Assembly (NCBI GenBank): GCA_964551375.1
Contig: CAZKBG010000001.1
Span: 715,229 to 747,228, forward strand
Source of the DNA: an uncultured archaeon
GTDB taxonomy: Archaea; Iainarchaeota; Iainarchaeia; Iainarchaeales; JAAZKV01
Direction of reading: 5' to 3'
Length of the DNA: 32,000 bases
Shown piece by piece: positions 2,330 through 30,517 of the stretch. A model generated the notes under the pieces. That model had not been told where the DNA came from and made no database searches. It saw only the letters and a list, made by a program, of their open reading frames with translations. Numbering within the stretch: position 1 is the stretch's first letter; each line of letters starts with the position of its first letter. The translations under genes and the position numbers were made by a program.

Positions 2330-2478
2330 AAAAACACCACATCCAAAAAAGATAGAACTCTTAATAAAATTAGTTCAATTAGTTTAAAAAAAGATTGAAA
2401 AGCCAAACAAAACGCGCAAAAAAAGTGAAAACTGCCCGCGCCAGAAAGGTATTTAGTTATTACAACACAGCATATATT

Positions 2479-4245
2479 ATGCAAAACTGCCCGAAAGAAT
2501 ACTCTAAACTTGCAAATACCGCAGTCAACCTTGCAAAAGAAAAGGGAGTAAAAAACTCCACGCTTGAAAGGACTTGGAGAGTCGCCATGGATTTGTGCGA
2601 TAAACAACTCCCTATTTCAGCAATCATTGCGGAAATAATAAAAGAAATCCCTCAAGAAAATATTTCTGAAGAAGAACTAATCAAACTATTTGGAAAAGAA
2701 GCGGTTGATATTTCAAATTATGTCAGACAGCTTAATTCAGTAATACAAAGCAATTACTTAAGAGTGCCTACTGAAACGCTGAATTCAATAATTCTTTCCA
2801 TACCAAAGGACTTTCAGCCGATAATTTTAATGATTGCTGATGTAAGCGACATGCTTGAATATAATGACAAAAGCGGGCTTGAGAAAAATTTTGCAAAAAA
2901 AGCTGAAGAAATATGGTTTCCGCTCGCAACAAAACTTGGGCTTAGCAACTACGCATGGAAACTACAGGATTACAGTTTTAGAGCAATAAACCCTGAAGGA
3001 TACGCTAAAGTCAATATGCTTGTGAATAAAGACAGAAAAGCAAGAGAACAATTAATTAAAGATGTCATAAACGAAATGCAAAAACTTTTAGCCGGAAAAA
3101 TGAAAGCAAGGATTATGGGAAGGCCAAAAACACTCAAATCAATTCATGACAAGATGAAAAAAAAACCGTTCTCAAACATACATGATATTTACGGAATAAG
3201 AATAATCTGCGACAAAGAAAAAGAATGCTACGAAGCTTTGGGATATGCGCACTCAAAATATGAAATCATACCAGAATCTTTTGATGATTATATTACAAAG
3301 CCCTGGGCTGACGGATACCAGAGCATACATACCGCTGTGCGAAGAGGAGAAGATATTATTGAAATACAAATACGAACATGGACGCACCACTTGCGTTCAA
3401 TCTCTGATAGGTACTGGAATTACAAAAAAATAATGAAAGACAAGGAATTTGAGAAAGAACTAAGCTGGGAAAGACAGCTCTTAGAGTGGCAGAAGAACGA
3501 ATCAGGAACTGGCTTAGGGAAAAAAATCAGCGGACAAAAAATATTTGCGTTTACTCCTAAAAATGAAGTAATTGCGATGCCAAACGGAGCGACAGTGGTT
3601 GATTTTGCATTTGCAGTGCACACGGATATTGGCAAAAACATGGAAGGGGCAAAAGTCAACGGCAAAGTTGTCCCAATTGAAACTAAGCTCAAAAACTTGG
3701 ACAGAGTTGAAATTATAACAAATCAAAAACCCCAGATGAAGAAAAACTGGATAGGGTTTGTAATAACAGAAAAAGCAAAACAAAAAATCAAATCAGTATT
3801 CGGGCTTAAGAGCATAAAAAAACCCGCTGCGCAAATAGGAATAAATGACATTAAAAAAATAAAAATGGCAGAATGCTGCAACCCGCTCCCGGGAGAAGAC
3901 GTAATAGGAGTAAAAACCACAAAAAGAAAAATAATAGTGCACAAAAAAGACTGCCCAAATATAAAAAAGATGGATAAATCCAAATTAATTGAAATAGGAT
4001 TTGAAAGAGACAAAGGAAAAACACAAATAAGAGTGAACGTGCTTGACAGGCCAGGAATACTTCCCGAAATACTTGACGAAATTAAAAAAGGTGGCGCAAC
4101 TTTAATCAACACAAATTTCAAAATAAAGAAAACTGGATATGCTGAAGCAATATTTGGGATTGAAATATCAAGCGCCTCAAAACTTGACAAGTTAATTGAA
4201 AGAATTGAACAAATTCCGGGCGTTATGGGCGCTGAAAGACTGTAA
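2479..4245 (+). CDS. long RelA/SpoT homologue: (p)ppGpp synthetase with degenerate HD domain, TGS, conserved-Cys and ACT domains
   Basis: Synthetase motifs GRPKTLKSIHDKM, DIYGIRIIC, DGYQSIHT and EIQIRT. TGS domain IFAFTPKNEVIAMPNGATVVDFAFAVHTDIG. Conserved-Cys segment CCNPLPGEDVIG..HKKDCPN. ACT domain IRVNVLDRPGILPEILDEI. The HD position reads IIAEIIKEIPQENISEEELIKLFG, with no His-Asp. The tracked TTG start at 2395 is unlikely. ATG 2479 sits about 20-30 nt after the TATA-like tatttagttattac. Confidence 0.85.
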   Translation: MQNCPKEYSKLANTAVNLAKEKGVKNSTLERTWRVAMDLCDKQLPISAIIAEIIKEIPQENISEEELIKLFGKEAVDISNYVRQLNSVIQSNYLRVPTETLNSIILSIPKDFQPIILMIADVSDMLEYNDKSGLEKNFAKKAEEIWFPLATKLGLSNYAWKLQDYSFRAINPEGYAKVNMLVNKDRKAREQLIKDVINEMQKLLAGKMKARIMGRPKTLKSIHDKMKKKPFSNIHDIYGIRIICDKEKECYEALGYAHSKYEIIPESFDDYITKPWADGYQSIHTAVRRGEDIIEIQIRTWTHHLRSISDRYWNYKKIMKDKEFEKELSWERQLLEWQKNESGTGLGKKISGQKIFAFTPKNEVIAMPNGATVVDFAFAVHTDIGKNMEGAKVNGKVVPIETKLKNLDRVEIITNQKPQMKKNWIGFVITEKAKQKIKSVFGLKSIKKPAAQIGINDIKKIKMAECCNPLPGEDVIGVKTTKRKIIVHKKDCPNIKKMDKSKLIEIGFERDKGKTQIRVNVLDRPGILPEILDEIKKGGATLINTNFKIKKTGYAEAIFGIEISSASKLDKLIERIEQIPGVMGAERL

Positions 4246-4317
4246 AACCAGCCACTCTGGCGCAAAAACGTATTTATTTAAATCGATGGGAAGACATGTT
4301 TTTGGGAGTTGGTCAGA

Positions 4318-5511
4318 ATGAAGTTAAACATACAAATAGCTGTGCTATTTATTCTTTTTATTTTTGCAGCGGGGGCAATGGCGGCTGCGCCTGACGCAAC
4401 ACAAGTCACTTACAACCCAAGCCCTGCCGTGCCAGGAACAACAATGACTGTAATTATACAGCTTGAGAACAAACAGCTTGTATCAGAAAATGATGTTTTT
4501 GTTAAACTAGAAAGCACATACCCTTTCACAGTAAAATCAAGCGAGACTGAACAAAATCCAAGAAGCATAGGAACAATGGATAAATACGCAAAAGCGCAGG
4601 CAAGCTTCACAGTTTATGTTGACCCGACAGCAGAAAATAAAACATACACTTTCCCAGTAATAGTAACTTCAAACGGAGACCAGACAGGAAAAAGAACTAC
4701 TTTTTCAATTGTAATCAGCGGAAAAAGCCCTGTTCTAAAAGTAGTATCAACAACAAACGAGAAACTTCTCCCAGGACAGGAAAAAGAAATACCAATTACA
4801 ATCCAAAACGTTGGAACAAGCCCAGCATATGATATAATTGCTGAAATACAAGAAGACAGGACTGTTACTGCAACAGGAACAGTAATTGAAAGAGACATAA
4901 CTTCAGTAGGCGCATCAACCGCATACTTAAATACAATAAATCCCGGCGAAAGAAAAGTGGCAAGCTTAAGAGTAAATGTAAGCAACACAGCAACAATCAA
5001 AAACTACCCTATTCCAATCAGAATCTCATACAGAGATGCAGCAGGAACAAGAATGACTGACACATCCTACATCGGACTCAAAGTTTTTGGAACAGCAGAT
5101 ATTGACGCAACAATAAAAGAAAGCAGCGGATCATTCTCTGTGGGACAACAGTCGCAAGTAACTGTGGAAGTTTTCAATAAAGGATTAGGAAAAGCTGATT
5201 TCACACTAATTGAAGTAAGCACCACAGACGGAACTGTTCAAACACCAAAACAATTCATTGGAACACTCGGGCCAAATGATGTGGACACAGTAAAAACAAC
5301 AATTGTATTCAACAGAAGCGGAGAACACGCAATTGATGTGAACATCACATACCAAGATGCGGATTCAACACAAAAGACAAAAACAATAACTCTGCCAGTA
5401 AAAACACAGCAAATTTCTGACGGCGGAATGAACCCAGTAATAATTATTGTCGCAATAATAGTAATTGCAGTAATAATCTGGAACTTCTTCTTAAGAAAGA
5501 AAAAGAAATAG
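4318..5511 (+). CDS. secreted surface protein with CARDB/S-layer-like beta-sandwich repeats and C-terminal TM anchor
   Basis: Signal peptide MKLNIQIAVLFILFIFAAGAMAAAP. Repeated ..V.V.N.G...A patterns (IPITIQNVGTSPAYD, VTVEVFNKGLGKAD). C-terminal segment NPVIIIVAIIVIAVIIWNFFLRKKKK. GGGAG lies 9 nt before ATG 4318. Confidence 0.7.
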   Translation: MKLNIQIAVLFILFIFAAGAMAAAPDATQVTYNPSPAVPGTTMTVIIQLENKQLVSENDVFVKLESTYPFTVKSSETEQNPRSIGTMDKYAKAQASFTVYVDPTAENKTYTFPVIVTSNGDQTGKRTTFSIVISGKSPVLKVVSTTNEKLLPGQEKEIPITIQNVGTSPAYDIIAEIQEDRTVTATGTVIERDITSVGASTAYLNTINPGERKVASLRVNVSNTATIKNYPIPIRISYRDAAGTRMTDTSYIGLKVFGTADIDATIKESSGSFSVGQQSQVTVEVFNKGLGKADFTLIEVSTTDGTVQTPKQFIGTLGPNDVDTVKTTIVFNRSGEHAIDVNITYQDADSTQKTKTITLPVKTQQISDGGMNPVIIIVAIIVIAVIIWNFFLRKKKK

Positions 5512-18769: not shown

Positions 18770-21700
18770 TTATATTTTTTCCCATTCTTCAGTGAGCTTT
18801 TCTCGCTTGTCTTTTTTTATTCGCTCTCCTGAATTAAACTTTTGCAGCAAAACTACTGCCACAACAATTATCAGCGCTATTGGAATAAATCCGGAATAGG
18901 GGATTGACTCTGACAAAGGGGCTTTTGAATTTAATAAAAGAAATGCGTCCGTAAATTTGTTTGAATCAATAAGCTCTTTGCTTTTGCTCACAATAGACTT
19001 ATCTTTTTTTGAGTCAACCGCTGAATTGAAAGCGGTTATAGTCTGGCGTTTGATTGAGTCAAACGCCGTTAAAAGTTCATCTTTAATTGCAAAAACAGTT
19101 TGAAGTTTGACTGACAAGTTTAAATCTGACAACGCAAGTTCATTCAAATTAAATTTTAATTGTTTTAACCTCTTTTCAGTAATTGGCTGAATAAATTTTG
19201 CATTTATCAGTTCAGACTCTTTTCCATAAAGCAGTGTTTCAAGGTTTTGTATGAGTTTGTTGCTGTCAGAAAGGAGACTCTTAAACTTTTTTTCTTCTTC
19301 TGGGGAAAAAGAGCTGTCTGTTTCAAAGCTTTTTTCTTTTTCAATCAGGAATTTATCAAATAGTCCTAATAATTGTGAGTATATTGAATAAGCATCTTTT
19401 TGAGATTTAATTAAAGCAACATCAAATTCATTTTTCTTTTTAACAAAATCGTTGAAAGTAAGGATAAGCGAAGCGGATTTGGTTTCTTTCATTATTTTTT
19501 GCATAGTTGCATGCATTTGCAAAACCCTTTTTTGCATTTCTGCCAGAATCTTAGTTTTTATTCCTGCTTCTTCTTTTTGCAAAGTATTTAATTGCGCCAA
19601 GCTATAATTTTCAATTGCTCCTGAACTGACTAATTCATTTAGTTCTTTTATTCGCTTTACGTCTTCAATAAATCCGATTGTCTCAAGCAGATTAACATCC
19701 GAATATAATTGTTTAAGAGTTGTCTCAATATTATTTTGCAGCTGGTTGGCAGTCAATTCATTTAATACAGTCAGTTTTTGGTTTTCAATTAAATTATTGT
19801 TTGATTCAATCTTTTTTGCAATTTCAATTAAACTTTTATCAAAAATTAAACTAATGAATTCGTTTGTCTTTTCTCCTTCAATAAGCATATTCTGCTCGTA
19901 AAAAAAATCCCGTTGTCTTTCTAAAATCAATTTATATGCCTCTTTTGAATCACTAACTTCAAAAGAAAGGGTAAAATATTTTTTTTCCTTTGGCAGAAAA
20001 TGGCTATTTTCAATAAACAGTTTATTTGCAAGCCTCTTATTTTCAATTTGGTTGAACGAATCTGTTTGGAGGGAGATGTTTTCAGCAAATTCAAGCTCGT
20101 CAATTTCGAACAGCAAGTCAGCAGCAAGGCTTTCAGGAAAAGTGCTTTGGGCAGTCAGCTCAAAAGTATACTTATCAAATCCGCTGCCAGAATCAATTTT
20201 TATTAAATTTGAACTTGTTTGAATAATTCCTGTTGTAAAAAAAGTTGCATAAATTTTTTTCTTAGTATCAAGAAGGGCGGGGCCAATTTCTAAAGTTGAT
20301 TTATTGATTGAATATAGGATTTCTTCATGTTCGTAACTGACCGCAACTTTATTTGTCTTGGGCGGGATTATGGTTGTTATTATTGCTCTTGCAAAGATAT
20401 TTTCAGGAATAAAACTTATTGTTCGTTGAATTATGCTTTCGTTGTTTGTCACTTTGATAAGCTCATCGCCCTCAACTTGTATTAAATTTGACTTTATTTT
20501 TATTTTAAGCGCAGTTGGCCCCGGGTTTGCGCAAATAAACACAATTTTTTGTCTTGAGAAAGGATCCTGTTGAATGCAAGAATTGTCTTCAAGGTAGGTT
20601 AGGAGAAAATTTAAGTCAATTTCAAAATATGTGTCGCTGTTTTTAATTGGGTTTGTGAAATACAACAGCCCTTCTTGTTCAAATCCTTCGCTTTTTTTAA
20701 TTATTGTGTTTGTGTCAAGAAGTATTGTGTAATTTGATTTTATTATCTTGCTTACACATTTATCCAAGAATTCATTTACTGTGATATTTTGTTCTTGTAT
20801 TGATTTTAGCAAAGTTTCCTCAATTCCAAGAATGTTTTCAATAATTATTTTTCCATCTGGTGAAAAATAATCATTATATTTAGATATTTTTTTTAACTGT
20901 TCTTTTGTTTCTGTCAAAAGTCCAGCGCCGGAGATAACAACGATATTTTGATTTAGTATATTTTCTGATTCCTTAAGTTTTGTGAATTCAAATTCAAGCT
21001 CTTTAATTTCCTTATTTTCCCCAATTTGCGCTTTTGCTTGATTGCTGATGGAAAGGCAATAATTAATGGCCCAGGGCAAATTTAATTTTGTTATATTTGT
21101 TTCTTTCAATTGGCTGTATTGTTCGCGGAGTTCGGGCATATTTTTATAAGAAAGCATCTTTTCCAGATTTGTTAAGCACTCTTGCGCCAATATTTTTTGA
21201 GCGGCAAGATATTCATCGTAATTAGATATTGCTTTCTCAAGCTCAAGTTTTTTAGCGACAAATTTTGCGCAATAATAAAGCTTTTCTTCATTAAGCGAAT
21301 TTTTTGTTTTCTGGGCAAAATAATACGCTTCGTCAGCAAGATCGCCTAAGTGGAAGTCTTCATCAGCAACGGGGTTTTTGTAGTTGCTGGCAATTTGCTC
21401 GCACTTGTTATAAGTTTGATCAAGCGCGTTTTCATTTATTATATTAACTTCTGCTAAAAGCGAATTTTCCGCCGCAAGAAGGTTTTTAATTTCAAAAACT
21501 CTTTCCCCAATGCCAACATCTTCTTTAGCAATTTTTTCCTTTAATTTAGCTATGTTTGTGCCGATTTGCAGGAGCTTTGTTTGGGGAGTTTCCTCTATGG
21601 AAACTACTTTTCCAAAAAGCAAACTGTATAATTTTGCGTGTTGTTTTAATGAGTTATATTCAGCAACTTTTTTTGAGCAAGCAACATATTTTTGTTCAAT

Positions 21701-22633
21701 ATCCTGCATGCCTGTTAATGAATATTTTTTTGTTGTGTTAAAATTATTGCTGGTTTTATTCATCAAATCAGAAAAGCGCTTAATGGCTGAATTATTGTTT
21801 CCCCCAATGTTTGAGTAAAGTTTCATAAAGTCATTAATTGGAAAGTTTTGCAGATTTAGAAGAGTTTCTCTGGTAAAAAAAGCATTTTCAAAATATGCTG
21901 CTAGTGAGCCAAATATTTTGCTGCTTTGGAAGTACTCTCCAAGCGTGCTTTCTTTGTGGTCAAAAATTATTAGTTTATCAAGATATGCAAACCCGGCAAT
22001 CCAAACAGGTGCTTTTTCTGCAGCTATTGGAAATCCTTTGGCCGCAGACGACTTAGTAAATTCAATAACTTTATTTTGGTAGTACGAAAAATATGTGTTT
22101 GAGTTTGTTTCTCCGCTGTTGAGTTCTGATATTATTTGGCGAAATTCTATTAATGAATAATATAATTCATCTTCTTTGATTAATTCAATATTTTCTTCAG
22201 AAAGCATTTTTTCTTCAGCTTTGATTATTTCAAAACTCTTTTTCATTGAATAGTCGAGCTCAATCAGCGCCTGCTGCATGTAATACCTTGATTGATTTAA
22301 TGGGGTTGAAAGGCCTTTTGCATTCCCTGTCTGGCAAAGTTTTTGGATAGTTTCAGTTTCTTTTATTGCTTTATTATGGAAAAACCAGCTTCTCGCAAGG
22401 CTGTTTTTTAGATCATAAAGCAGGCTTTCTTGCTCATACCCTAACTGGGTTTTGAACATTTCACTTACTTTTTCATAACAACTGCTTTCAGTTTCGCAAT
22501 AAGGCACATATGAATAGCTTTGGGTAGCAAGGGTGAAACATAGATTTTTTTGTGAAGAAGTCATTTGCGTACAGCCAAGCAAAAGAAGCAAAAAGACTGT
22601 GATTGCTATGCTAACTAAACCAAAATGCTTCAT
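18770..22633 (-). CDS. giant (1287 aa) coiled-coil-rich surface protein with lipobox signal peptide and C-terminal TM anchor
   Basis: MKHFGLVSIAITVFLLLLLGC (LLGC lipobox), long heptad-like K/E/L/N-rich stretches, and the C-terminal segment FIPIALIIVVAVVLLQKF followed by a charged tail. Confidence 0.75.
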   Translation of the reverse strand: MKHFGLVSIAITVFLLLLLGCTQMTSSQKNLCFTLATQSYSYVPYCETESSCYEKVSEMFKTQLGYEQESLLYDLKNSLARSWFFHNKAIKETETIQKLCQTGNAKGLSTPLNQSRYYMQQALIELDYSMKKSFEIIKAEEKMLSEENIELIKEDELYYSLIEFRQIISELNSGETNSNTYFSYYQNKVIEFTKSSAAKGFPIAAEKAPVWIAGFAYLDKLIIFDHKESTLGEYFQSSKIFGSLAAYFENAFFTRETLLNLQNFPINDFMKLYSNIGGNNNSAIKRFSDLMNKTSNNFNTTKKYSLTGMQDIEQKYVACSKKVAEYNSLKQHAKLYSLLFGKVVSIEETPQTKLLQIGTNIAKLKEKIAKEDVGIGERVFEIKNLLAAENSLLAEVNIINENALDQTYNKCEQIASNYKNPVADEDFHLGDLADEAYYFAQKTKNSLNEEKLYYCAKFVAKKLELEKAISNYDEYLAAQKILAQECLTNLEKMLSYKNMPELREQYSQLKETNITKLNLPWAINYCLSISNQAKAQIGENKEIKELEFEFTKLKESENILNQNIVVISGAGLLTETKEQLKKISKYNDYFSPDGKIIIENILGIEETLLKSIQEQNITVNEFLDKCVSKIIKSNYTILLDTNTIIKKSEGFEQEGLLYFTNPIKNSDTYFEIDLNFLLTYLEDNSCIQQDPFSRQKIVFICANPGPTALKIKIKSNLIQVEGDELIKVTNNESIIQRTISFIPENIFARAIITTIIPPKTNKVAVSYEHEEILYSINKSTLEIGPALLDTKKKIYATFFTTGIIQTSSNLIKIDSGSGFDKYTFELTAQSTFPESLAADLLFEIDELEFAENISLQTDSFNQIENKRLANKLFIENSHFLPKEKKYFTLSFEVSDSKEAYKLILERQRDFFYEQNMLIEGEKTNEFISLIFDKSLIEIAKKIESNNNLIENQKLTVLNELTANQLQNNIETTLKQLYSDVNLLETIGFIEDVKRIKELNELVSSGAIENYSLAQLNTLQKEEAGIKTKILAEMQKRVLQMHATMQKIMKETKSASLILTFNDFVKKKNEFDVALIKSQKDAYSIYSQLLGLFDKFLIEKEKSFETDSSFSPEEEKKFKSLLSDSNKLIQNLETLLYGKESELINAKFIQPITEKRLKQLKFNLNELALSDLNLSVKLQTVFAIKDELLTAFDSIKRQTITAFNSAVDSKKDKSIVSKSKELIDSNKFTDAFLLLNSKAPLSESIPYSGFIPIALIIVVAVVLLQKFNSGERIKKDKREKLTEEWEKI

Positions 22634-26284: not shown

Positions 26285-26464
26285 TCACTTCTTCTCCAAA
26301 GTCATTGCAGCAACAGGGCAGATTTTAACACATGCTCCGCAAGAAATGCATTTCTTTTCGTCTACTATGATTCTTGTGTCCTTTAGTACAAGCGCTTCCA
26401 CAGGGCAAACCCCTACGCAAGCTCCGCAATAAATACACTTATTCGCATTGTTTTTAACGACCAT
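26285..26464 (-). CDS. 2x[4Fe-4S] ferredoxin (59 aa)
   Basis: CIYCGACVGVCP and CISCGACVKICP. The start is trimmed to ATG 26462-26464. The stop is 13 nt before the reductase start. Confidence 0.85.
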   Translation of the reverse strand: MVVKNNANKCIYCGACVGVCPVEALVLKDTRIIVDEKKCISCGACVKICPVAAMTLEKK

Positions 26465-26524
26465 AAAACCACTCAGCAAATACTGGGGGATAAGGTTTTT
26501 AATCCCAAAAGCTATGGCTTTATC

Positions 26525-27883
26525 ATGCAATATAAATACAGTCGTGCCCAAGGGACAATTGAATATTTAGTGATAATTGCAATAGTAATTGTAATAGCAC
26601 TTGTGGTTGTAGGCTTAATGACTGGCATTATGGGTGATTCTGCCGGCCAGATAACTGACAATTTCGGGTACTTGAAGACACCCTCTTCAGGGCTGATTAT
26701 TAGCGAATCAGTAGTAGATCAGGCGGGCGAAGGAGTTATTAGAATGAGTAATCATTCAGGCGAATCAATTACAATAAATAAAATCACTACTCCCACTTCG
26801 TCAAGAACGTATAATGAACCTTTTGCTTCAAGCGATTCAAAAATATTTAATATGTCAAATTTAAATTTAAGCTGCCCGTGCGCTGCAGGAGAACGAAAAA
26901 AAATTTGCAATTTTACGCTTGAATACACTACAGGCAGCGGATTAGCGAAAACAGAAACTATTCAAATTACCACTGAGTGCATTACAAACTTAACTCCCTC
27001 AAATCCAGAAAGCGTAATTTATGGAGTGGGAACTGGAACCGCAATTGATCCATGGGTAGTAAAAACCATAGCACAACTTCAAGACATTAACAGCCATTTA
27101 GACGGAAATTTTGTTCTTGTAAATAATATTGATTTATCAGACTCAATTAATTGGGAATACCCAACATACACCGGATTTACTCCTATTGGCGGAGGAGGGG
27201 CAACAGAGTGCGGAGACAATCTTTATTTCACAGGAACTTTTGACGGAGGGGGAAATACAATAAGCGGACTCTACATAGATGGTTACAATTGCAATACCGC
27301 ATTATTTAGTTATCTTGGCGCTGCTGGAATAATAAAAAATCTTCACCTCACCGGAGTAAATATTTCAAATATTGATTCGACTGTCGCAGGAATTGCAGGG
27401 TACAGCGACGGAACAATAGAAAATGTTTCAGTTCAAGGAACATTTAGCGGAGGAGCTGGGGGCGCAATTGTCGGAGTAAATTACGGGACAGTTTCAAAAG
27501 CAAGCGCGAATGCAACAATAAATGTTACTGAATGGGGCGGGGGAATTGCAGGGGACAATCAAGGAACAATTTCTAATTCTTATGCTATGGGAACAATTAC
27601 TGCTTCTCCATGCGGGGGAATTGCTGCAAATTCTTACATTACTATAAATTCATACTCAACAGCTCGAATACTTAACTGCACAAACTATTACGGCGGATTA
27701 ATGGGCGCAATGACTGGGACTGTGACAAGTTCTTACTGGGATACAGAAACCTCACAAGAAGCCACAAGCGCAGGCGGAGTGGGAAAAACAACCGCTCAAA
27801 TGCAGCAACAATCAACTTACAGTGGATGGGATTTTACTAATATTTGGAACGCGCCAAGTTCAAGCTACCCAACACTAAAATAA
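26525..27883 (+). CDS. type IV pilin-like (class III signal peptide) protein fused to a GLUG-repeat adhesin-like domain
   Basis: MQYKYSRA-QGTIEYLVIIAIVIVIALVVV fits the QxSxExxxL class III signal motif. It is followed by repeats such as VAGIAGYSDGTIENVSVQG, GGAIVGVNYGTVSKA, GGGIAGDNQGTISNSYAMG and YGGLMGAMTGTVTSSYWD, and a terminal TYSGWDFTNIW..YPTL. Confidence 0.7.
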   Translation: MQYKYSRAQGTIEYLVIIAIVIVIALVVVGLMTGIMGDSAGQITDNFGYLKTPSSGLIISESVVDQAGEGVIRMSNHSGESITINKITTPTSSRTYNEPFASSDSKIFNMSNLNLSCPCAAGERKKICNFTLEYTTGSGLAKTETIQITTECITNLTPSNPESVIYGVGTGTAIDPWVVKTIAQLQDINSHLDGNFVLVNNIDLSDSINWEYPTYTGFTPIGGGGATECGDNLYFTGTFDGGGNTISGLYIDGYNCNTALFSYLGAAGIIKNLHLTGVNISNIDSTVAGIAGYSDGTIENVSVQGTFSGGAGGAIVGVNYGTVSKASANATINVTEWGGGIAGDNQGTISNSYAMGTITASPCGGIAANSYITINSYSTARILNCTNYYGGLMGAMTGTVTSSYWDTETSQEATSAGGVGKTTAQMQQQSTYSGWDFTNIWNAPSSSYPTLK

Positions 27884-27969
27884 GATTATTATTTTTTTTA
27901 ACTAATTTTGCGTTTCTTTTTTTTAGTTAAATTATTTTTTTAATTAGTTGTTTTTCTTGAACAGGTTAG

Positions 27970-30036: not shown

Positions 30037-30429
30037 TCAGCTTCCAAAATACTGGCTTGAAGAAGGGTAGAAGCACTTTGGAACACAAACTGCAATGCAC
30101 ATTGTGCTTGAGCCTGAAGCTTTATCAAAATAATAAGGAATTAAATCAGAAAACCCAATGCTCTTAATCGGGCGCTTTGAGCAGGCAGAAGTGCAGGGCT
30201 CAAAACAACCTTCTTGCGAAATACATTTAGAATATATTGCATTAGTATTAGGGTCGGCATTTGAATCAGGAATAAATTTTTCATTCTGCATGCATCCGGC
30301 ATATACTGAATTATAATAATTGTAATAATCTTTTTCAAGGGAAAAATTTGTTGAATAAAATCCCGCAGCATAAATAACAGCAATTATTACAATTGCAACA
30401 AAAAGAATTCCAATTATTTTGCCATTCAT
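30037..30429 (-). CDS. membrane-anchored Cys-rich extracellular protein
   Basis: MNGKIIGILFVAIVIIAVIYAAGF anchor and 10 Cys in the ectodomain. The start is trimmed to ATG 30427-30429. Confidence 0.55.
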   Translation of the reverse strand: MNGKIIGILFVAIVIIAVIYAAGFYSTNFSLEKDYYNYYNSVYAGCMQNEKFIPDSNADPNTNAIYSKCISQEGCFEPCTSACSKRPIKSIGFSDLIPYYFDKASGSSTMCIAVCVPKCFYPSSSQYFGS

Positions 30430-30517
30430 AGTTAATACACCCAGTTCAAATATATTAATCTTGGTTTTTCTTCCGGCAGGACGCATAAAGAAGCTTTAAA
30501 TTATACGCTTAGGGAAG

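What the first reader, a model, noticed from the sequence alone, without database searches (positions are those of the whole stretch)
26525..27883. Pilin-like prepeptide fused to a roughly 400-aa GLUG-repeat adhesin domain
The N-terminus (KYSRA/QGTIEYLVIIAIVIVIALVVV) fits the archaeal class III signal peptide/DUF361-type pilin motif QxSxExxxL. The rest is not a small pilin globular domain. It is a series of GG[IL][AV]G.N.G.I.N.Y-type repeats (GLUG motif, otherwise known from bacterial IgA-protease-like adhesins) ending in YWDTETS...GKTTAQM..TYSGWDF..IW..YP. A pilus subunit carrying a beta-helical adhesin would be a plausible host-attachment device for an episymbiotic archaeon. No pilus assembly ATPase or prepilin peptidase is present in this window.
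Basis: partly seen in the sequence, partly recalled or inferred. Interest (0 to 1): 0.6.

Follow-up and report, generated by a model that had tools for sequence, protein, structure and literature searches.

The report
Archaeal modular pilin with GLUG head
This gene of a small DPANN-type archaeon encodes a real type IV pilin (cleavable pilin signal, core helix, small pilin domain) with a GLUG beta-helix grafted on its end. It is most likely one of several interchangeable sticky heads shown on one pilus system, a design already known from bacteria and already seen in paralogues of this genome.

Summary
ORF 26525-27883 (+, 452 aa) starts with an EppA-type class III signal (SRA|QGTIE, +1 Gln, +5 Glu) and ends in five GLUG turns.

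The AlphaFold model (pLDDT 91) shows a helix (11-47), a four-Cys beta-sandwich (57-153) and a GLUG beta-helix (177-452).
- The helix plus sandwich is homologous to a 153-aa pilin encoded directly after an ATPase/PilC pair elsewhere in the genome (hhalign 99%).
- Its best PDB fold match is archaeal type IV pilins.
- The GLUG part matches the beta-helix of IgA1 proteases (profile E 6e-30), without any protease domain.

New evidence: mature residues 1-23 are identical to the machinery-linked small pilin, although 16 of 23 codons differ synonymously. That points to selection for the same core helix, hence probable co-assembly.

Seven or eight paralogues share the pilin module with other heads. The scan has already described paralogues on other DNA of this genome the same way. 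I class it as a new member of a known kind (modular pilins). Assembly, binding and host attachment are unproven.

The parts
26496..26503 (+). TATA-like TTTTTAAT element 22-29 nt upstream of the ATG, in the 60-bp divergent intergenic region. It suggests a leaderless or short-leader transcript.
   Evidence: Read directly from the sequence. This is inference only; no promoter test was run.
26525..26548 (+). Leader peptide of the class III signal (residues 1-8, MQYKYSRA). It is short and basic, with the predicted cleavage after Ala8.
   Evidence: The pattern -2 Arg, -1 Ala, +1 Gln, +5 Glu matches EppA-type sites such as RA|QI (PMC4371748). Pfam Class_IIIsignal covers residues 6-29.
26549..26665 (+). 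Alpha-1 helix of the pilin (residues 9-47). The QGTIEYL motif is followed by a hydrophobic core. Mature residues 1-23 are identical to the 153-aa pilin of the ATPase/PilC locus at C1:422011-425634.
   Evidence: The AF2 model has a helix at 11-47. Q9-L15 is invariant. Mean identity to homologues is 74%, against 34-36% for the other domains. The protein is identical over these 23 residues while 16 of 23 codons differ synonymously.
26693..26983 (+). Pilin globular module (residues 57-153): a seven-strand beta-sandwich with four invariant cysteines (C117, C119, C128, C152).
   Evidence: AF2 model. Invariant Cys columns. hhalign to the 153-aa pilin gives probability 99%, E 3e-18. Foldseek top matches are archaeal type IV pilins 6w8u, 8fk7 and 8tib. 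The module is shared by 7-8 paralogues.
26984..27052 (+). Linker (residues 154-176) with the conserved TP.NP motif and G.GT...PW, joining the pilin module to the passenger.
   Evidence: Alignment. pLDDT is about 83-91.
27053..27880 (+). GLUG beta-helix passenger (residues 177-452). It has a cap with LDGN[YF], five GLUG turns at 288, 313, 339, 364 and 390, and a C-terminal YWD...GKTT...GWDF..W...YP closing motif. There is no protease domain.
   Evidence: Pfam Glug and Peptidase_M26_N. PDB profile hits: 3n6z at E 5.8e-30 and S. pneumoniae IgA1P beta-helix at about E 4e-16. Foldseek 7uvl at E 8e-7. pLDDT 93-99. No HExxH motif.
27884..27910 (+). T-rich tract directly after the stop codon, a likely archaeal oligo-T terminator shared with the convergent gene.
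   Evidence: Read directly from the sequence. Inference only.

Best explanation
The gene encodes a modular archaeal type IV pilin.

Inferred steps of how it works:
1. The protein is inserted in the membrane by its class III signal.
2. An A24 prepilin peptidase removes the 8-residue leader in front of Gln9. Two such enzymes are encoded in the genome, and one is a long archaeal type lying in a pilin operon.
3. The mature protein keeps a hydrophobic alpha-1 helix and a small four-Cys beta-sandwich. Together these are the same pilin module as a 153-aa pilin encoded right behind one of the genome's five ATPase+platform pairs.
4. Through that shared helix it is taken up by the same machinery into, or most likely at the tip of, the filament built from the small pilin.
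5. This exposes its C-terminal GLUG beta-helix, probably N-glycosylated, as a binding head.

At least seven other paralogues use the same pilin handle with other heads (GLUG, beta-propeller, Ig-like, unknown), so the cell can arm one pilus system with a repertoire of adhesin-like modules.

Shown here: the architecture, the homologies, the presence of the machinery, and selection on the helix. Inferred: cleavage, incorporation into a filament, position in the filament, and binding function and ligand.
For: Architecture:
- The AF2 model has pLDDT 91 and pTM 0.79, with a helix at 11-47, a sandwich at 57-153 and a beta-helix at 177-450.

Signal:
- QGTIEYL is invariant in 15 homologues.
- The site SRA|QGTIE has the +1 Gln and +5 Glu signature of EppA substrates (PMC4371748).
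- Class_IIIsignal scores above the cut-off in paralogues and in the 153-aa pilin.

Pilin module:
- hhalign to the machinery-linked 153-aa pilin gives probability 99%, E 3e-18 over 134 columns.
- Archaeal T4P subunits are the top fold matches.

Machinery:
- The genome has 2 A24 peptidases, 7 T2SSE ATPases and 5 ATPase+2xPilC loci. The 370-aa peptidase carries Arc_PepC domains.

Co-assembly:
- Mature residues 1-23 are identical to the locus-2 pilin while 17 of 69 nucleotides and 16 of 23 codons differ synonymously. This indicates purifying selection, not gene conversion.
- Across 29 genomes, helices are 10.6 points more alike within a genome than between genomes at equal sandwich divergence, and 0 of 5000 permutations reach this value.

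Head:
- The GLUG beta-helix is homologous to the IgA1P N-terminal domain, which contacts the IgA1 Fab (PMC7695701).

Extracellular location:
- The protein has 10 N-x-S/T sequons, the top 3.5% of long ORFs in this genome.

Modularity:
- Paralogues with the same module carry SBBP, Big_7+DUF6454 or GLUG heads.

Precedents:
- Bacterial modular pilins (PMC8179133).
- H. volcanii PilA1-6, which share an H-domain and are unlinked from their machinery.
- Scattered pilins and class III proteins with beta-helical C-termini in DPANN and other archaea (PMC13705601).
Against:
- The gene is not linked to pilus genes. Its neighbours are housekeeping genes, and only 3 of 78 homologous loci have an ATPase within 6 kb.
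- For this protein alone, the Pfam signal and GLUG hits fall just below the curated cut-offs.
- Fold similarity of the pilin module is moderate (TM 0.41-0.47), and generic Ig-like sandwiches also score.
- A 290-aa head may be sterically hard to place in a filament body.
- Conservation of the helix could reflect recognition by the peptidase or platform, or a membrane function, without polymerisation.
- The permutation test does not control fully for relatedness.
- No ligand or binding function is known for GLUG domains in archaea.
Confidence: 0.65

Rival explanations
1. It is a pilin-like but non-polymerised surface protein. The class III signal and helix serve only for export, processing and membrane anchoring, as proposed for bindosome-type class III proteins. 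The GLUG head sits on a short stalk at the cell surface rather than on a filament.
For: - The gene is unlinked from the machinery.
- The subunit is large, and large class III proteins that are not classical pilins are known, namely the bindosome subunits (PMC4371748; PMC13705601).
Against: - A mere anchor would tolerate I/V/L swaps. Here 23 residues are identical to the machinery-linked pilin despite near-saturated synonymous change.
- The protein keeps a full pilin globular module homologous to the small pilin, which an anchor would not need.
- Even bindosome proteins are thought to depend on a T4P-like ATPase and platform.
Confidence: 0.25
2. The head is an enzyme rather than an adhesin. In this reading the beta-helix acts as a glycan-degrading or other hydrolytic module displayed on the surface or pilus.
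For: Right-handed beta-helices are common in glycoside hydrolases and lyases. Foldseek lists GH87, GH28, isopullulanase, fucoidan lyase and alginate epimerase among the weak matches.
Against: - Those matches have low probability (0.14-0.69) and E > 0.007.
- The specific homology is to the non-catalytic N-terminal beta-helix of IgA1 proteases and to 3n6z.
- There is no HExxH motif and no M26 catalytic region.
- No Pfam enzyme family matches.
Confidence: 0.07
3. It has an ordinary Sec signal peptide or N-terminal signal anchor, and the resemblance to pilins is coincidental.
For: The Pfam Class_IIIsignal score is 0.5 bit below the gathering cut-off for this protein.
Against: - The conserved motif precedes the hydrophobic segment and is invariant in homologues.
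- The same N-terminus occurs on 21 ORFs in the genome, including short pilins inside operons with an ATPase, PilC and a peptidase.
- The model continues the helix to residue 47 with no signal-peptidase I-type site used in the alignment.
- The module is homologous to a bona fide small pilin.
Confidence: 0.03

Closest known systems
Bacterial modular type IV pilins (Streptococcus sanguinis PilB with a vWA module and PilC with a lectin module; PMC8179133, PMC9934059)
   Same: A small N-terminal pilin module is joined by a short linker to a bulky functional module that is not specific to pilus biology. These pilins are thought to sit at the filament tip and mediate adhesion. The published InterPro survey lists six bacterial proteins with the architecture IPR012902 - IPR011493. 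I recall IPR011493 to be the GLUG motif, but this was not verified here. Two hits (P0040, P0047) combine a bacterial prepilin signal with GLUG.
   Different: Here the signal is the archaeal class III/EppA type (+1 Gln), not the bacterial N-methyl motif; no PF07963 hit was found. The pilin module is an archaeal beta-sandwich rather than the bacterial alpha-beta roll. The gene is unlinked from the pilus operon. Nothing has been shown experimentally.
Methanococcus maripaludis Epd pilins and their peptidase EppA (archaeal T4F 'system 1')
   Same: The cleavage signature is K/R-G/A|Q with +5 Glu. [quoted passage not shown] A long A24 peptidase with archaeal C-terminal domains lies inside a pilin operon (PMC4371748; PMC13705601).
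   Different: Epd pilins are small. The 370-aa peptidase scores only 28.6 bits on the EppA equivalog model (cut-off 450), so it is not an EppA orthologue by NCBI's standard. This protein also carries a 276-aa passenger.
Haloferax volcanii adhesion pilins PilA1-6
   Same: Several paralogous pilins share an almost identical hydrophobic H-domain, are encoded away from the PilB/PilC genes, and depend on that H-domain for assembly (PMC4371748). This parallels the 12 ORFs here with the QGTIEYLVIIA.VIVIALVVVGL helix.
   Different: PilA1-6 are small major pilins without passenger domains, are processed by PibD and lack the +1 Gln.
N-terminal beta-helix of Gram-positive IgA1 metalloproteases (PDB 6xja, 7jgj, 7uvl) and the Bacteroides-type 'putative IgA1 protease' 3n6z; Pfam GLUG (PF07581) / Peptidase_M26_N
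   Same: The passenger is homologous to this small beta-helix (profile E 5.8e-30 and about 4e-16; Foldseek E 8e-7). In the pneumococcal enzyme this domain contacts the IgA1 Fab and gates the active site (PMC7695701).
   Different: There is no M26 catalytic region, no HExxH, no LPXTG or G5 domains. The host is an archaeon and the N-terminus is a pilin.
Class III signal-peptide 'binding proteins' / bindosome of Sulfolobales and their wider archaeal relatives (PMC13705601)
   Same: [quoted passage not shown] They have been proposed to functionalise T4F machineries.
   Different: Those proteins carry solute-binding domains directly after the helix. This one has a true pilin sandwich module and a GLUG head, and no solute-binding family matches.

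Membership tests
Archaeal type IV pilin (class III signal peptide protein) | A short basic leader, with the peptidase site before (not after) the hydrophobic segment, and small -1 and charged -2 residues | tested here: met
   The leader is MQYKYSRA|QGTIEYL followed by 20 hydrophobic residues. The motif is invariant in 15 homologues. It matches the EppA-type sites RAQI/KGQV with +1 Gln and +5 Glu (PMC4371748).
Archaeal type IV pilin (class III signal peptide protein) | Match to Pfam Class_IIIsignal (PF04021) above the gathering score | tested here: inconclusive
   The score is 23.2 bits against a cut-off of 23.7 for this protein. Eight of 15 homologues match at E<0.01. Paralogues with the same helix and the 153-aa pilin score 24.1-31.2 bits.
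Archaeal type IV pilin (class III signal peptide protein) | A long N-terminal alpha-helix followed by a beta-sandwich globular domain, as in solved archaeal pilus subunits | tested here: met
   The AF2 model has a helix at 11-47 and a sandwich at 57-153. The top Foldseek hits for the module alone are 6w8u (E 2e-4, TM 0.41/0.47), 8fk7 and 8tib. Caveat: TM is below 0.5 and generic Ig-like folds also score.
Archaeal type IV pilin (class III signal peptide protein) | Homology to a pilin encoded with assembly genes | tested here: met
   hhalign probability is 99%, E 3e-18, to the 153-aa pilin directly downstream of ATPase+2xPilC at C1:422011-425634. Mature residues 1-23 are identical.
Archaeal type IV pilin (class III signal peptide protein) | The genome encodes a prepilin peptidase, an assembly ATPase and a platform protein | tested here: met
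   There are two PF01478 hits, seven PF00437 hits above the cut-off, and ten PF00482 stretches forming five loci.
Archaeal type IV pilin (class III signal peptide protein) | Actual cleavage by the peptidase and incorporation into a filament | not testable with these tools
   This needs proteomics, cryo-EM or genetics.
GLUG / Peptidase_M26_N beta-helix domain (PF07581, PF05342) | HMM match to the GLUG motif | tested here: inconclusive
   This protein scores 19.6 bits against a cut-off of 20.5. Twelve of 15 full-length homologues match, with a best E of 2.8e-16, and most of the 985 homologues carry PF07581.
GLUG / Peptidase_M26_N beta-helix domain (PF07581, PF05342) | Homology and fold identity with the solved GLUG beta-helix | tested here: met
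   The family profile hits 3n6z_A at E 5.8e-30 over profile positions 169-473, and the IgA1P beta-helix at about E 4e-16. Foldseek gives 7uvl_P at E 8e-7. pLDDT is 93-99.
M26 IgA1-specific metalloprotease | A catalytic Zn-metalloprotease region with HExxH | tested here: not met
   There is no HExxH in the protein. No Peptidase_M26_C or other protease family matches. The protein ends 50 residues after the last GLUG turn.
Modular type IV pilin (sensu Raynaud et al. 2021) | An N-terminal pilin module plus a C-terminal module that is a domain not specific to pilus biology | tested here: met
   The pilin module spans residues 1-153 and the GLUG module residues 177-452. The same pilin module occurs with SBBP, Big_7 and other heads in paralogues.
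Modular type IV pilin (sensu Raynaud et al. 2021) | The bacterial prepilin N-methylation motif (IPR012902/PF07963) used to define the published set | tested here: not met
   There is no PF07963 hit, and the signal is the archaeal class III type. It therefore works like a modular pilin but lies outside the bacterial family as it was defined.
Bindosome-type class III solute-binding proteins | A solute-binding protein domain after the helix | tested here: not met
   There is no SBP family in Pfam or NCBIfam.

The most novel reading that the evidence does not exclude
In Iainarchaeota-like DPANN archaea, one Epd-like pilus machinery may display a whole repertoire of modular pilins, eight or more per 1.1-Mb genome. 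These would be held compatible with the major pilin by strict selection on an identical alpha-1 helix. Their interchangeable heads (GLUG beta-helix, beta-propeller, Ig-like) would be the determinants of which partner cell or surface the archaeon attaches to. That would make them a combinatorial host-recognition system for a lineage whose partners are unknown.
Probability: 0.3. Interest if true: 0.65.

Novelty: new member of a known kind. Interest (0 to 1): 0.4.

Why it matters
DPANN archaea have tiny genomes, yet this one spends more than 20 genes on pilin-type proteins and has five assembly loci. Knowing that the large ones are true pilins with exchangeable heads gives concrete candidates for the molecules that mediate attachment in a lineage with no cultured members. 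The recombinant heads could be used as probes to fish for partners or ligands.

The synonymous-site test is a cheap, general way to predict which scattered pilin genes belong to which machinery.

The design itself (modular pilins, class III proteins that functionalise pili) is already published, and paralogues in this genome were already described by this scan. This gene therefore adds an example and a line of evidence, not a new principle.

Tried and rejected
- NCBIfam gave no family for the protein.
- Gene neighbourhood gave no functional link. The neighbours are NFACT, geranylgeranyl reductase, ferredoxin, a transglutaminase-like protein and a RecJ/GAN-like nuclease. Only 3 of 78 homologous loci have a T2SSE ATPase within 6 kb. 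Two of those three involve a 767-aa, 75%-identical ATPase that may not be pilus-related.
- The IgA-protease reading was rejected because there is no catalytic region or HExxH.
- The glycoside hydrolase/lyase reading was considered because of weak Foldseek beta-helix matches, and rejected as low probability.
- Foldseek of the pilin module also returned pMMO/AMO subunit B, chaperone-usher Ig folds and TRAP subunits. I treat these as generic sandwich similarity.
- The 370-aa peptidase cannot be called EppA, scoring 28.6 bits against a cut-off of 450.
- Gene conversion as the cause of helix identity was tested and rejected for this gene, since 16 of 23 codons differ synonymously.
- The third fold search (viral library), the representative-protein search and further word-index searches were not used because they would not bear on the open question of assembly.
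Full report
**1. The observation**

The window holds an ORF at exactly 26525..27883 (+), 452 aa.

Pfam gives three near-threshold hits for this protein alone:
- Class_IIIsignal, residues 6-29, 23.2 bits against a cut-off of 23.7.
- Peptidase_M26_N, residues 234-305, 22 bits against 27.7.
- Glug, residues 286-306, 19.6 bits against 20.5.

NCBIfam gives nothing. Taken alone these hits would be marginal, but the family context removes the doubt.
- A word-index search finds 985 homologues, most carrying PF07581. Some are named 'GLUG motif-containing protein [archaeon]'.
- In 15 full-length homologues the stretch Q9-G-T-I-E-Y-L15 is invariant.
- Glug matches 12 of the 15 and Class_IIIsignal 8 of the 15.

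I count five GLUG-type turns at residues 288, 313, 339, 364 and 390, with a period of 25-26 residues.

**2. Anatomy**

An AlphaFold2 model built on a 50-sequence alignment is confident (mean pLDDT 91, pTM 0.79). It has three parts:
- A long helix, residues 11-47.
- A seven-strand beta-sandwich, residues 57-153. It carries four cysteines that are invariant in the family: C117, C119, C128 and C152.
- A beta-rich module, residues 177-450, with pLDDT 93-99.

A pilin-sized domain sits between the helix and the GLUG part, and the GLUG module is about 276 aa rather than about 400 aa.

**3. The GLUG module**

A profile of the family hits several solved structures:
- 3n6z, a 'putative immunoglobulin A1 protease', at E 5.8e-30 across profile positions 169-473.
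- The Streptococcus pneumoniae IgA1 protease (6xja, 7jgj) at about E 4e-16, over chain residues ~96-366.

The paper on that structure describes this region as a small beta-helix (residues 781-1070 of the enzyme). The N-terminal domain contacts the IgA1 Fab, and the beta-helix moves as a gate (PMC7695701).

Foldseek with the whole model puts IgA1 protease first (7uvl, E 8e-7).

There is no HExxH motif and no catalytic M26 region. The protein is therefore not a protease. It carries only the binding/gating beta-helix.

Weak Foldseek matches to beta-helical glycoside hydrolases and lyases have low probability. I do not take them as evidence of enzymatic function.

**4. The pilin module**

The leader is eight residues long and basic. 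The predicted site is SRA|QGTIE, that is -2 Arg, -1 Ala, +1 Gln, +5 Glu. A review of archaeal pili lists exactly this signature for substrates of the Methanococcus peptidase EppA, with sites RAQI, KGQV, KGQL and KGQI, a conserved +1 Gln and a +5 Glu (PMC4371748).

Folded on its own, the module (residues 1-167) has archaeal type IV pilus subunits as its best PDB matches:
- Pyrobaculum arsenaticum 6w8u, E 2e-4, TM 0.41/0.47.
- P. calidifontis 8fk7, E 5.5e-4.
- S. islandicus 8tib, E 1.5e-3.

The similarity is moderate and generic Ig-like sandwiches also score. On its own this would be suggestive only.

**5. The genome**

The window lies in a 1.09-Mb, 93%-complete assembly.
- There are two A24 peptidases and seven T2SSE ATPases above the cut-off.
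- There are ten PilC/T2SSF stretches arranged as five ATPase + two-platform-gene loci. This is the layout that a recent survey assigns to the Epd-like 'system 1' found in some DPANN (PMC13705601).
- One peptidase (370 aa) has the archaeal Arc_PepC domains and lies inside an operon of short pilins. It aligns full-length to the EppA model but far below the equivalog cut-off.
The window neighbours are housekeeping genes.

**6. A family of handles and heads**

A motif scan finds 21 ORFs in the genome with this type of N-terminus, all with +1 Gln. They fall into three helix groups.

The finding's protein belongs to a group of 12 with the helix QGTIEYLVIIA.VIVIALVVVGL. One member of that group is a 153-aa pilin encoded immediately after the ATPase and two PilC genes at C1:422011-424698.

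That small pilin is homologous to residues ~5-142 of the finding's protein, meaning helix and sandwich together (hhalign probability 99%, E 3e-18, 134 columns).

The sandwich module is shared by seven to eight paralogues, whereas GLUG is shared by only four. Other paralogues carry SBBP beta-propeller repeats, Big_7 plus DUF6454, or unassigned domains.

This is the architecture that Raynaud et al. call a modular pilin: a small pilin module with a functional module grafted on through a short linker (PMC8179133).

**7. Evidence for co-assembly (new here)**

Identity to 14 full-length homologues differs sharply by domain:

| Region | Mean identity |
|---|---|
| Helix | 74% |
| Sandwich | 36% |
| GLUG | 34% |
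| Leader | 23% |

Mature residues 1-23 are identical in the finding's protein, the machinery-linked 153-aa pilin and a 904-aa paralogue. Yet against the small pilin, 17 of 69 nucleotides differ and 16 of 23 codons differ synonymously. Identity is therefore maintained by purifying selection on the protein, not by recent gene conversion.

Across 83 proteins with this sandwich module from 29 genomes, helices are 10.6 percentage points more alike within a genome than between genomes after regressing on sandwich identity. None of 5000 label permutations reaches that value. The test does not fully control for relatedness.

A simple membrane anchor would tolerate I/V/L exchanges. A requirement to pack with the same major pilin, or to be handled by the same platform, explains the pattern better.

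H. volcanii offers a precedent. Six pilins with an almost identical H-domain are encoded away from PilB3/PilC3, and they need that H-domain for assembly.

**8. Other supporting points**

- The protein has 10 N-x-S/T sequons, the top 3.5% of ORFs of at least 200 aa in this genome. This is consistent with a glycosylated extracellular protein.
- A TATA-like TTTTTAAT lies 22-29 nt upstream of the ATG, and an oligo-T tract follows the stop codon. This is inference only.

**9. Distribution**

A scan of one genome per species found 139 relatives, all in uncultured archaea. Several carry titles such as Candidatus Iainarchaeum, 'ainarchaeum' or Forterrea, which belong to Iainarchaeota within Nanobdellati/DPANN. 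There are several paralogues per genome.

Only 3 of 78 loci have an ATPase within 6 kb. [quoted passage not shown]

**10. What remains open**

Nothing here shows expression, cleavage, presence in a filament, position (tip or body), or a ligand.

The main rival is a processed but non-polymerised surface protein of the bindosome kind. I give it about 0.25. 'Host attachment of an episymbiont' is a reasonable guess but is untested.

**11. Novelty**

Several parts of this picture are already published or annotated:
- Modular pilins are established in bacteria. The published survey lists six bacterial proteins with the architecture IPR012902 - IPR011493. I recall IPR011493 to be the GLUG motif, but that was not verified here.
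- Two hits combine a bacterial prepilin signal with GLUG.
- A 2026 survey already proposes that class III proteins with diverse C-terminal folds, including beta-helices, functionalise archaeal pili.

Earlier notes of this scan describe paralogues of this gene elsewhere in the same genome in the same terms. I reached the reading before seeing them and tested it independently on this gene.

I therefore class it as a new member of a known kind, with moderate interest. The added value is the link to a specific machinery-associated pilin and the synonymous-site evidence for selection on a shared core helix.

Noticed in passing
window 2395-4245 (+): A 616-aa long RelA/SpoT homologue with HD_4, RelA_SpoT, TGS and ACT domains sits in what looks like a DPANN archaeon. 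Long RSH enzymes are typical of bacteria, so this may be a horizontally acquired (p)ppGpp synthetase/hydrolase.
   Followed up: no
window 18770-22633 (-): A 1287-aa ORF has no Pfam match. Its N-terminus is a signal-like hydrophobic stretch ending in LLLLGC, which resembles a lipobox. It is possibly a large lipid-anchored surface protein.
   Followed up: no
window 26285-26551 (-): The mechanical ORF for the 2x[4Fe-4S] ferredoxin starts at a TTG that overlaps the pilin gene's first codons. The likely true start is the ATG at 26464 (MVVKNN...). That leaves a 60-bp divergent intergenic region shared with the pilin gene.
   Followed up: partly
G000 C1:634434-640700 (loci L001, L003, L011, L012): This is a complete Epd-like pilus operon. 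It holds an ATPase, two PilC genes, at least six short class III proteins (57-150 aa, all with +1 Gln), and a 370-aa A24 peptidase with Arc_PepC domains embedded among them.
   Followed up: partly
G000 whole genome: All 21 class III-type ORFs have Gln at +1 and fall into three helix types (QGTIEYLVIIA..., QGAIEYLLIIGAAIL..., QSALEYLMTYGWA...). Each type is represented by short pilins next to a different ATPase/PilC locus. The helix type may serve as an address label for the machinery.
   Followed up: partly
L048:3546-5813 and L092:7868-10135: In two other genomes, a 756-aa ATPase 73-76% identical to the genome's C2:48854 T2SSE-like protein (767 aa) lies directly beside a GLUG-pilin homologue. 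Its high conservation suggests a housekeeping role, and the adjacency is unexplained.
   Followed up: no
window 12457-13386 (-): A tyrosine recombinase (Phage_integrase plus SAM-like N domain) could be the archaeal XerA or an integrase of a mobile element. The flanking short ORFs have no matches.
   Followed up: no
proteins P0040 and P0047: Two homologues of the GLUG module carry a bacterial prepilin signal (PF07963, or a 'prepilin-type N-terminal cleavage/methylation domain' name). The pilin-GLUG combination therefore seems to have arisen in bacteria as well.
   Followed up: no
window 30037-30486 (-) and 4309-5511 (+): There is a 149-aa Cys-rich single-pass membrane protein without family matches, and a 400-aa CARDB-domain protein. 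Both are further probable surface proteins in the window.
   Followed up: no
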